Part shown: positions 9,367-10,619 of the stretch, one piece after another
How positions within the stretch are numbered: position 1 is the stretch's first letter
Layout of the letters: the number at the start of each line of letters is the position of its first letter
Source of the DNA: a virus
DNA length: 37,270 nucleotides
Reading direction: 5' to 3' (one strand)
Virus record (IMG/VR): IMGVR_UViG_3300001865_000265
Translations under genes and position numbers: made by a program
The notes under the pieces: generated by a model
Databases searched by the model: none
What the model saw: the letters and a program-made list of their open reading frames with translations, nothing else
Told to the model about the DNA's origin: nothing

Positions 9367-9367
9367 A

Positions 9368-9601
9368 TTGTCACTTTGACAACCAAAATTTCCAGGGTGA
9401 CAACCACTACAAAGGTTGTCAATCTAAGAATATTCTATACTATTTTTAATTATTTGACTATTTTTAATGGAGTTTTTTTTTGACAACCATTTCCAAAAAA
9501 GACCCCCCTTAATTTGTAGGATTTACATGAAATTTAGGTGGTTGTCACGGTTGTCACGGTTGTCAAAAATTAGGTGGTTGTCAAGGTTGTCAAGGTTGTC
9601 A
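9368..9601. repeat. Iteron-like GGTTGTCA array, probable replication origin
   Basis: 10 exact copies: TGACAACC at 9377, 9398, 9481; GGTTGTCA at 9414, 9540, 9549, 9558, 9576, 9585, 9594; AT-rich spacer 9422-9480. Confidence 0.75.
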
Positions 9602-9626
9602 GTATTATTTGAAAGGAGGTATTATT

Positions 9627-10061
9627 TTGACCAAAAATAAGTTCAAAATTAATGACAATTTAAACGTTATTATTCAACCAAGAGTTGGAAAAGGTGAAGG
9701 AAAACTTATATTATCTGTTTTTGGTATTAAACCAGAGCTGGTTGAATTAAGCACTAATGATGTAGTTGAATTAGTTGATGTATGTTGTGCCCAAATTGGA
9801 CGGATAGCTTATCGTAACCCTGATAAAGAGATGTTACAAGTTAAAGTTTACTTAAATGGAGAATGCAAAACAGTTAAATATGGTCCTTATGGTTTTAGTG
9901 AACTTGTTGAACTTGTACATGGTAAAATGAGATTTCCTGAAGATTTTACAATAACTGTTACTGATAAAAATGGAAAAAATCCTAAAATCTACTCTTTTGA
10001 TGATAAAATTGAGTTAAAAGAGGGAATGCAGATTAATGTAGATAGAACTAATTCAGCTTAA
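9627..10061 (+). CDS. Protein with C-terminal multi-ubiquitin-like (beta-grasp) domain
   Basis: VYLNGECKTVKYGPYGFSELVELV...FTITV...KIELKEGMQINVDRTNSA matches the Multi_ubiq pattern; TTG start after GGAGGT. Confidence 0.6.
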   Translation: MTKNKFKINDNLNVIIQPRVGKGEGKLILSVFGIKPELVELSTNDVVELVDVCCAQIGRIAYRNPDKEMLQVKVYLNGECKTVKYGPYGFSELVELVHGKMRFPEDFTITVTDKNGKNPKIYSFDDKIELKEGMQINVDRTNSA

Positions 10062-10073
10062 CTTGGTGATTAA

Positions 10074-10619
10074 ATGACTAAAAAAAGGCTTGAAACTCCT
10101 AAAGATCTTGAAAATGCTAAATGCTTAGATTGTGGAGCTGAACTAGTAAGATTTGGTGACAGGTCCCAAATTAATTTTAAATGTACTAATAGGAAATGTA
10201 ATTCTTTTTTTTCTGATGATAAATTAGATGAACTGGAGGGTAATCAAATGGAGCTTGATATTAAATATGGAGTTAAATGTGCAACTTGTACAGGTGAAAT
10301 AGATCATGAAGAGGGATATTCTCTTTTATGGGTTGTTGTTGATTTTAAGAAAGAGGTCCCAGATGAATTAGATATGTTTATTTATGATAGAATTTTGGAT
10401 ATTGGTGTTGATAATGGTAAAAAACCAATTCCAGATTTATCGCTTGAAACTGGAAGACTACAGGACCCTAATTGTTTATACATCAGTATGGGAAGGCACG
10501 ATACGGAATATGATTATTTTGAAGACTATTTTGAAGGTATTGAATTTACTGAATGGATGCAAGAAGCCATTAAAGATTTTATAACCAAAAATCCGGAACT
10601 TTTGGAAGTGGAACCATGA
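10074..10619 (+). CDS. Zn-finger protein
   Basis: CLDC, CTNRKC and CATC motifs. Confidence 0.7.
   Translation: MTKKRLETPKDLENAKCLDCGAELVRFGDRSQINFKCTNRKCNSFFSDDKLDELEGNQMELDIKYGVKCATCTGEIDHEEGYSLLWVVVDFKKEVPDELDMFIYDRILDIGVDNGKKPIPDLSLETGRLQDPNCLYISMGRHDTEYDYFEDYFEGIEFTEWMQEAIKDFITKNPELLEVEP

What the first reader, a model, noticed from the sequence alone, without database searches (positions are those of the whole stretch)
9627..10061. Archaeal virus encodes a bacterial-type multi-ubiquitin domain without C-terminal Gly
Seen: the C-terminal ~75 aa follow the pattern NG..KTV....F.ELV.L...FTIT...K..LK.GM..NV..T, which I recall from Multi_ubiq-family Ubls, and end in TNSA. Established: such Ubls occur in prokaryotic E1/E2/JAB operons, some antiviral (Bil type), while archaeal SAMPs end in GG. 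No E1, E2 or JAB gene is present here. Inference: an early-expressed non-conjugatable decoy/inhibitor of host Ubl-conjugation defence, or a protein-interaction module; the N-terminal ~70 aa are unassigned.
Basis: partly seen in the sequence, partly recalled or inferred. Interest (0 to 1): 0.75.

Follow-up and report, generated by a model that had tools for sequence, protein, structure and literature searches.

The report
Methanogen virus carries orphan BubA ubiquitin-like domain
A tailed virus of methanogenic archaea encodes a small protein whose second half was captured from BubA, the ubiquitin-like tag of the prokaryotic 'Bub' protein-tagging system. The virus lacks the tagging enzymes, which suggests (untested) that it interferes with or exploits a Bub system, whose biological role is still unknown.

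Summary
Window 9627-10061 (+) is a 144-aa ORF with a TTG start and a GGAGG ribosome-binding site. Residues 70-144 are a beta-grasp domain ending in TNSA. No E1, E2, JAB or BubE gene lies in the window.

Pfam's PF14452 model does not score the protein directly. Homology is nevertheless solid. phmmer matches 72-83-aa Multi_ubiq proteins at E 4e-7 to 3e-4, tblastn against an operon-encoded BubA gives 1e-17, and the best fold match is E. coli Type II BubA (9cd2, Z 10.8).

Those relatives are BubA of Type II Bub operons (BubA, BubBD E2-E1 fusion, BubE), not Bil or JAB systems. The nearest ones (46-49% identity, tree split 96/94) are from Methanobacteriales, the virus's host order.

The family's native C-terminus is ...INVDxTxx[S/G/A], with Ser in 76 of 93 rows and also in the conjugation-competent E. 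coli BubA. The viral tail keeps this register. The missing Gly is therefore the family norm and is no evidence of non-conjugatability.

The N-terminal 68 aa form a virus-specific domain that stands alone in related viruses, so the gene is a fusion sitting in a variable accessory slot.

The function is inferred only. I favour a competing or decoy substrate for Bub enzymes. Earlier notes of this scan reported orphan BubA-like genes in two other viruses.

The parts
9615..9619 (+). Shine-Dalgarno-like GGAGG, 7 nt before the TTG start
   Evidence: Read directly from the sequence.
9627..10061 (+). 144-aa ORF including the stop codon: a fusion of a virus-specific N-terminal domain and a BubA-type beta-grasp domain
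   Evidence: An identical protein is called on two other public contigs.
9627..9830 (+). N-terminal domain, residues 1-68. Fold unassigned: four strands plus a helix are predicted at low confidence.
   Evidence: 68% identical to the stand-alone 77-aa protein P0004 of related viruses. pLDDT is about 50. No Pfam, PHROG or Atlas hit.
9834..10058 (+). Single beta-grasp Ubl domain, residues 70-144, homologous to BubA of Type II Bub operons (Multi_ubiq)
10032..10058 (+). C-terminal tail INVDRTNSA, in register with the family tail INVD-x-T-x-x-[S/G/A]-COOH. This is the part of a Ubl that an E1 adenylates.

Best explanation
Shown or strongly supported. The gene encodes a two-domain protein. Residues 1-68 are a domain private to this group of Methanobacteriales viruses. 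Residues 70-144 are a single ubiquitin-like beta-grasp domain descended from BubA, the Ubl of Type II Bub operons. It is most closely related to the BubAs found in Methanobacteriales chromosomes and proviruses. The virus carries no BubBD (E2-E1) and no BubE (protease). The domain has diverged very fast, yet it keeps the family's exact C-terminal tail.

Inferred mechanism. The protein is made from the replication/early module. In cells that carry a Bub system, chromosomal or on a resident provirus, its BubA-like domain docks on the BubBD adenylation site, and perhaps on BubE, in competition with the cognate BubA. It would then act either as a sink (a dead-end or mis-directed substrate whose bulky N-terminal domain is what gets attached) or as a plain competitive binder, blunting Bub-mediated conjugation. 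In this reading it is a captured-substrate counter-measure against Bub. It is not a 'Gly-less, non-conjugatable' decoy, because its tail looks as conjugation-ready as that of genuine BubAs.
For: - Homology and fold.
- In every genome context examined, the relatives sit first in BubA-BubBD-BubE operons.
- The nearest relatives are Methanobacteriales BubAs at 46-49% identity, against 39-43% for the Bacillota genome hits. A labelled tree splits the virus plus four archaeal BubAs from 14 Bacillota BubAs with support 96/94.
- The host order does carry the machinery. There is a complete operon beside fibrillarin, Nop5 and Hjc in Methanobacterium, and another beside a psiM2-like terminase.
- The tail is conserved despite a branch about 30 times the median length. 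21 of 31 family-conserved positions are kept, including N137, V138, D139, T141 and a small last residue at the same length. That argues the E1- or BubE-docking function is still under selection.
- The family's near-invariant VEKR patch has become VKYG, and G125 has become D. This fits a changed or lost downstream interaction.
- The gene sits in a variable accessory slot. The closest provirus has an unrelated 119-aa ORF there, and other relatives carry the N-domain alone.
Against: - There is no functional data of any kind.
- Bub has not been shown to be antiviral; its authors found no phage protection in E. coli.
- Bub is rare in the host order: BubE occurs in 3 (plus 1 weak) of 328 Methanobacteriales genomes. 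It is absent from the four genomes that hold the nearest proviruses.
- The actual host strain is unknown.
- The protein is a singleton: one 100%-identical sequence on the few contigs found, with no other fused form detected. Selection therefore cannot be measured.
- The loss of the conserved VEKR patch could equally mean the domain no longer deals with Bub enzymes at all.
Confidence: 0.45

Rival explanations
1. Productive hijack. The viral protein is a genuine alternative Ubl substrate. The host's or a resident provirus's BubBD conjugates it, N-terminal domain included, to viral or host proteins to the virus's benefit, much as some eukaryotic viruses encode their own ubiquitin.
For: - The tail is in the family register and looks conjugation-ready.
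- An N-domain plus a single beta-grasp is a normal BubA architecture.
- Bub loci can hold a second, divergent BubA gene (P0085, ending in Ala like the viral one) beside the operon. One BubBD may therefore serve several Ubls.
Against: - Bub is rare in the host order. A virus function that depends on Bub would rarely be available.
- The conserved VEKR patch is lost.
- No target is known.
Confidence: 0.2
2. Bub-independent module. The beta-grasp domain was co-opted purely as a protein-protein or protein-nucleic-acid interaction module. It might act in replication or early regulation beside the primase/helicase and the iteron cluster, with the N-domain carrying the ancestral function.
For: - The gene lies directly downstream of ten GGTTGTCA boxes and of the primase/helicase gene.
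- The N-domain alone is a complete gene in related viruses.
- The branch is very long and the conserved VEKR patch is lost.
- Beta-grasp domains are widely reused (established knowledge).
Against: A flexible C-terminal tail with no E1 or protease to meet should drift in length and sequence. Instead it keeps the family's length and its N-V-D-x-T pattern, and it stops at the same position.
Confidence: 0.25
3. Lysogen-side defence part or relic. The gene is what remains of, or an accessory to, a virus-borne Bub operon used for superinfection exclusion.
For: A psiM2-like Methanobacteriales provirus region carries a complete Bub operon plus an extra BubA. The window's virus is temperate, since it encodes an integrase.
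Against: - No trace of BubBD or BubE is found anywhere in the window.
- The gene is an intact in-frame fusion inside the co-oriented replication module, not in a cargo or defence region. It is identical on independent contigs.
Confidence: 0.1

Closest known systems
BubA of Type II Bub (6E.2) operons, e.g. E. coli ZDHYS365 BubA (PDB 9cd2) and the 75-81-aa 'multiubiquitin domain-containing proteins' of Bacillota and Methanobacterium (WP_286472803.1)
   Same: - Homologous beta-grasp domain.
- Best structural match, Z 10.8.
- Same C-terminal tail register with a small last residue.
- An N-terminal extra domain plus one beta-grasp is a known BubA layout.
   Different: - Not in an operon: there is no BubBD or BubE nearby.
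- Virus-encoded, and fused to a virus-private N-domain.
- Branch about 30 times longer than the median.
- The VEKR patch and G125 are lost.
- Does not reach Pfam's PF14452 model.
Bil (bacterial ISG15-like) antiviral systems, whose Ubl is BilA
   Same: A prokaryotic Ubl with a beta-grasp fold. Bil is the case where Ubl conjugation is shown to be antiviral (summarised).
   Different: - Bil operons have separate E1, E2 and JAB genes and use thioester chemistry. Type I BilA has two beta-grasp domains.
- All the relatives found here sit in Bub operons, not Bil operons.
Archaeal SAMPs and the ThiS/MoaD sulfur carriers
   Same: Small archaeal or bacterial beta-grasp proteins activated by E1-like enzymes. 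Structural Z is 6-7.
   Different: Those end in Gly-Gly (established knowledge). They show no significant sequence match here, and their structural scores are lower than those of BubA structures.
Virus-encoded ubiquitin homologues of eukaryotic viruses (e.g. baculovirus v-ubi) and phage anti-defence proteins that mimic a defence component (from my own knowledge, not checked here)
   Same: A virus carries a copy of the host pathway's tag or substrate without the enzymes.
   Different: Different host domain and pathway. No activity has been shown for the present protein.

Membership tests
Multi_ubiq / BubA domain family (PF14452) | Significant sequence homology to bona fide members | tested here: met
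   - phmmer E 4e-7 to 3e-4 to P0007-P0012. P0007 passes Pfam's own cut-off, 27.5 against 24.5 bits.
- tblastn 1e-17 to an operon-encoded BubA.
- The family profile matches 9cd2 at 2.2e-5.
Multi_ubiq / BubA domain family (PF14452) | Direct score over the Pfam gathering threshold | tested here: not met
   No PF14452 hit even at E <= 1. This is an operational criterion. Of the six relatives found by phmmer, five also fall below the cut-off or get no PF14452 hit at all.
Multi_ubiq / BubA domain family (PF14452) | Beta-grasp fold | tested here: met
   Predicted, not solved. pLDDT is above 90 for residues 70-140. Best match 9cd2_B, Z 10.8, rmsd 2.7 A over 74 aa; other multi-ubiquitin structures score Z about 8.
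Multi_ubiq / BubA domain family (PF14452) | Family C-terminal tail ...INVD-x-T-x-x-[S/G/A]-COOH ending the protein | tested here: met
   The viral tail is INVDRTNSA. Among the 93 rows tallied the last residue is Ser in 76, Gly in 11 and Ala in 4, two of the Ala rows being the viral protein itself. E. coli BubA ends ...TDKS in the same register.
Type II Bub system (BubA-BubBD-BubE) | Encoded together with the E2-E1 fusion BubBD (DUF6791+ThiF) and BubE (DUF6527) | tested here: not met
   tblastn of BubBD and BubE against the window gives nothing better than E 2. Pfam on 48 ORFs finds none. The gene is therefore an orphan homologue of one component, not a Bub system.
Type II Bub system (BubA-BubBD-BubE) | Adenylation and conjugation by BubBD; cleavage by BubE | not testable with these tools
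   Needs biochemistry.
Bil system Ubl (BilA) | Operon with BilB (E2), BilC (JAB) and BilD (E1); C-terminal Gly | tested here: not met
   No such genes lie in the window. All relatives' contexts are Bub, not Bil. The tail ends in Ala.
Archaeal SAMP / ThiS / MoaD | C-terminal Gly-Gly and sequence membership | tested here: not met
   The protein ends in Ser-Ala. No sequence hit to these families. Only generic fold similarity, Z 6-7.

The most novel reading that the evidence does not exclude
The protein is a natural anti-Bub factor: a virus-captured, fast-evolving BubA that jams or diverts the BubBD ligase. If so, it would be the first viral counter-measure known against Bub. By implication it would also be the first evidence that Bub systems, whose role is still open, act in virus-host or virus-virus conflict, and that they do so in archaea. 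Orphan BubA-like genes noted in two other viruses by this scan (e1-3286507, e1-5408378; unchecked) would make this a recurrent strategy.
Probability: 0.35. Interest if true: 0.8.

Novelty: new variant of a known kind. Interest (0 to 1): 0.58.

Why it matters
Bub (6E/DUF6527) operons are a recently described ubiquitination-like pathway that works through oxyester intermediates. Their biological role is unknown, and their discoverers could not show phage protection.

A virus that has captured only the Ubl, fused it to its own domain, kept the E1-docking tail and let the rest evolve fast gives a concrete, cheap experimental handle. One can ask whether this protein binds, is charged by, or inhibits BubBD. 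A positive answer would tie Bub to virus conflict and supply a first inhibitor.

The work also shows that complete Type II Bub operons exist in Methanobacteriales chromosomes and beside a psiM2-like provirus. That extends the system to methanogenic archaea and their viruses. I found no paper in the held library that reports either point.

Tried and rejected
- Direct Pfam and PHROG scans of the protein gave no family.
- tblastn of the protein against 50,697 phage records gave no match.
- Single-sequence AlphaFold2 was unusable, pLDDT 38.
- Foldseek on the whole model gave only weak E-values, 3e-3 and worse. The superantigen-like (OB plus beta-grasp) rows rest on the low-confidence N-domain, so I do not trust them.
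- Two large phmmer hits, P0005 (Calx-beta repeats) and P0006 (Big_9/subtilase), are rejected as repeat or composition artefacts around 'TVTD.NG'.
- P0003, a cupin N-terminus joined to the last 39 residues of this protein, is a 742-bp contig at 1.3x coverage. It is 100% identical to the window from a sharp junction onward, so I read it as an assembly chimera.
- The ESM Atlas feature search on residues 1-68 gave no usable hit.
- A profile search for longer proteins (147-2000 aa) carrying the domain found none. This is weak evidence.
- An IMG/VR scan found only the complete-operon provirus region L010 and no other orphan.
- Complex prediction, with a Methanobacterium BubBD dimer and viral residues 67-144, returned no verdict (score 0.00). 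It counts neither for nor against binding.
- The first genome contigs attempt with alignment A2 failed because no stretch was conserved enough. I repeated it with A4.
The genome sizes of the hosts of related proviruses (2.2-3.5 Mb) and the window's 33% GC are compatible with Methanobacterium, but that is a guess.

Full report
**1. What is at the coordinates**

Window 9627-10061 (+) is an open frame of 144 codons. It begins with TTG, seven bases after GGAGG (9615-9619), and ends with TAA. Gene callers on two independent public contigs give the identical 144-aa protein. The related protein P0004 begins at the equivalent position.

**2. What kind of genome this is**

The window has about 33% G+C, and nearly all genes lie on one strand. 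Its gene content is:
- a tyrosine integrase at the left end;
- an ERF recombinase and a DUF5906/primase-like helicase;
- many zinc-ribbon ORFs;
- a head-tail-baseplate module (Baseplate_J, Gp10_C, sheath initiator);
- a Pei pseudomurein endoisopeptidase.

Its large terminase matches only Methanobacteriales viruses in the phage collection: PhiF3, MSTV1, psiM2 and psiM100. It also matches proviruses in Methanobacteriales genomes at up to 83% identity. 'Archaeal virus' is therefore correct: this is a temperate tailed virus of Methanobacteriales.

**3. Is the C-terminal half a Multi_ubiq domain?**

Pfam's PF14452 model does not score the protein even at E <= 1, and PHROGs gives nothing. The other evidence is consistent and strong.
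- An exhaustive phmmer search of 1.84 billion representatives matches residues 71-143 to six proteins of 72-83 aa, at E 4e-7 to 3e-4.
- Four of those six hit PF14452, one of them above the gathering cut-off. They align with the viral domain from first strand to last residue.
- A profile of these sequences retrieves 94 proteins. Most are about 81 aa, and many are named 'multiubiquitin domain-containing protein' by their sources.
- With the alignment, AlphaFold2 gives pLDDT above 90 for residues 70-140 with beta-beta-alpha-beta-beta-beta topology.
[quoted passage not shown] It stands above the other multi-ubiquitin structures (Z about 8) and above ubiquitin, ISG15, MoaD and ThiS (Z 6-7).
- The family profile also matches the 9cd2 sequence at E 2.2e-5.

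**4. Which system the relatives belong to**

In every context I fetched, the small relative is the first gene of a three-gene operon. It is followed, with overlapping stop and start, by a 387-392-aa DUF6791+ThiF protein and a 123-150-aa PF20137/DUF6527 protein.

This is the Type II Bub (formerly 6E.2) operon of Ye et al. (bioRxiv 10.1101/2024.11.21.623953) and Gong et al. (10.1101/2024.11.21.623966). Its parts are BubA (Ubl), BubBD (E2-E1 fusion) and BubE (serine protease). It has no JAB peptidase and works through tyrosine and serine oxyester intermediates. It is not a Bil operon.

**5. The 'missing glycine'**

In the 93 rows tallied the protein ends ...MRINVD[S/L]T-x-x-[S/G/A]. The last residue is Ser in 76, Gly in 11 and Ala in 4, and two of the four Ala rows are the viral protein itself.

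E. coli ZDHYS365 BubA forms ATP-dependent conjugates that need the BubBD adenylation, E1-Tyr and E2-Ser residues. It ends ...GMIFYVTQTDKS, aligned residue for residue with the family tail.

The viral tail ...GMQINVDRTNSA has the same length and keeps N137, V138, D139, T141 and a small terminal residue. So the lack of Gly is the norm of Type II BubA. It cannot be used to argue that the viral protein is non-conjugatable.

**6. Where the viral domain came from**

Among one genome per species (185,579 species), the best match is a Methanobacteriaceae MAG at 46% identity. The other nine matches are Bacillota at 39-43%.

The 90% cluster of P0036 (48% identical) includes WP_286472803.1 of Methanobacterium sp. 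CWC-01 / M. aridiramus. There the operon lies beside the fibrillarin, Nop5 and Hjc genes, which marks it as an archaeal chromosome.

P0016 (47% identical) heads a complete operon, with a second convergent BubA paralogue (P0085, ending in Ala). That operon lies next to a terminase 40% identical (1e-92) to that of psiM2, inside a region IMG/VR calls viral.

A labelled maximum-likelihood tree separates the virus plus the four Methanobacteriales BubAs from 14 Bacillota BubAs, with support 96/94. The viral terminal branch is 2.1 changes per site against a median of 0.07. The domain was therefore most likely captured from a Bub operon circulating in Methanobacteriales and then diverged rapidly.

Of the 31 positions conserved at 85% or more in the family, 21 are kept. 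The losses include the near-invariant VEKR patch (now VKYG), G125D and R135Q. The Q at position 135 is also present in the Methanobacteriaceae MAG BubA.

**7. The N-terminal half and the locus**

Residues 3-71 are 68% identical to P0004, a complete 77-aa protein of related viruses. Those viruses have a terminase 79% identical and a TFB-like gene 47% identical to the window's. Their P0004 gene is also followed by a zinc-ribbon gene, and P0004 ends exactly where the beta-grasp begins in the window protein. The window gene is thus a fusion of a virus-private domain and BubA.

The N-domain has no family, Atlas or confident fold assignment.

In the closest provirus (terminase 83% identical), the slot between the primase/helicase gene and the zinc-ribbon gene holds an unrelated 119-aa membrane-anchored ORF. 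This is a variable accessory slot.

Just upstream lie ten of the window's eleven GGTTGTCA octamers, against 0.75 expected by chance. They are probably the origin or an operator.

**8. Does the virus or its host have the enzymes?**

The window has none.

In 328 Methanobacteriales species genomes, BubE is found in three, plus one weak hit. One copy carries an in-frame stop. The viral protein finds only the operon BubAs of two of those genomes. The four genomes with the nearest proviruses lack BubE.

Bub is thus present in the host order, but sporadically. That is typical of mobile defence-like cargo. It also means the virus would meet Bub only in some cells.

**9. Mechanism**

The following are shown:
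- the homology and the predicted fold;
- the orphan status of the gene;
- its fusion architecture;
- its archaeal BubA ancestry;
- the conserved tail and the fast divergence.

The rest is inferred. Because a flexible tail with no partner should decay, I think the domain still meets a Bub enzyme. The most economical reading is a competing or dead-end substrate that ties up BubBD, and perhaps BubE, so that it counters Bub (confidence 0.45).

The rivals are:
- productive use as an alternative Ubl (0.2);
- a Bub-independent interaction module tied to replication (0.25);
- a lysogen-side defence remnant (0.1).

An attempt to predict the BubBD-viral domain complex gave no verdict and is not used as evidence.

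**10. Novelty**

The BubA family and the Bub pathway are known. New here are a virus-encoded orphan BubA fused to a viral domain and the presence of Bub operons in methanogen chromosomes and proviruses. I found no report of either in the held literature.

Earlier notes of this scan describe orphan BubA-like genes in two other viruses (e1-3286507, e1-5408378). I could not check them. If they are right, the theme recurs.

I rate this a new variant of a known kind, interest about 0.58. It is a solid, testable lead on an open question, but it rests on a single sequence with no functional evidence.

Noticed in passing
window 9367-9601: Ten of the window's eleven GGTTGTCA octamers cluster in the 260-bp gap between the primase/helicase gene and the target gene, against 0.75 expected by chance. 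Three minus-strand copies and one plus-strand copy come first, then two plus-strand triplets at 9-bp spacing. This is probably a replication origin or an operator.
   Followed up: partly
L010 7974-9727; L012 6001-7957 (also L011, L013): A complete Type II Bub operon (BubA, BubBD, BubE) plus a second, convergent BubA paralogue ending in Ala. It lies next to a psiM2-like terminase (40% identity, 1e-92), TFIIB-type zinc-ribbon genes and an MmeI-like restriction-modification gene. Bub appears here as cargo of, or neighbour to, a Methanobacteriales provirus.
   Followed up: partly
L019 8001-9745 (also L020-L022); G023:C1 about 1157600-1159215: A complete Type II Bub operon in a Methanobacterium chromosome, beside the fibrillarin, Nop5 and Hjc genes. 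Its BubBD is 84% identical to the provirus-linked one and 53-66% identical to the other BubBDs compared, most of them from Bacillota, which suggests recent inter-domain transfer. BubE occurs in only 3 (plus 1 weak) of 328 Methanobacteriales genomes.
   Followed up: partly
L023 4197-5667; G105:C2 735381-735545: Some Methanobacteriales Bub operons look decayed. BubBD is split into three ORFs of 173, 103 and 104 aa in a Methanobacteriaceae MAG, and BubE has an in-frame TAG in G105. These could also be assembly errors.
   Followed up: no
L001 1-742: A 742-bp contig at 1.3x coverage joins a cupin-like gene start to the last 39 codons of the target gene and the following gene, with 100% identity after a sharp junction. 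It is most likely an assembly chimera, and it produced a misleading 'homologue' (P0003).
   Followed up: yes
window 10074-10619 versus L047 7943-8478: The 181-aa zinc-ribbon protein downstream of the target corresponds to two separate genes in the closest provirus: a 51-aa zinc ribbon and a 126-aa protein ending ...ELLEVEP. This is either a second gene fusion in this virus's early region or a split in the relative.
   Followed up: no
L047 8441-8800 (minus strand): In the closest provirus (terminase 83% identical), the slot occupied by the target gene holds an unrelated 119-aa ORF with a C-terminal transmembrane segment. The position is a variable accessory-gene slot.
   Followed up: partly
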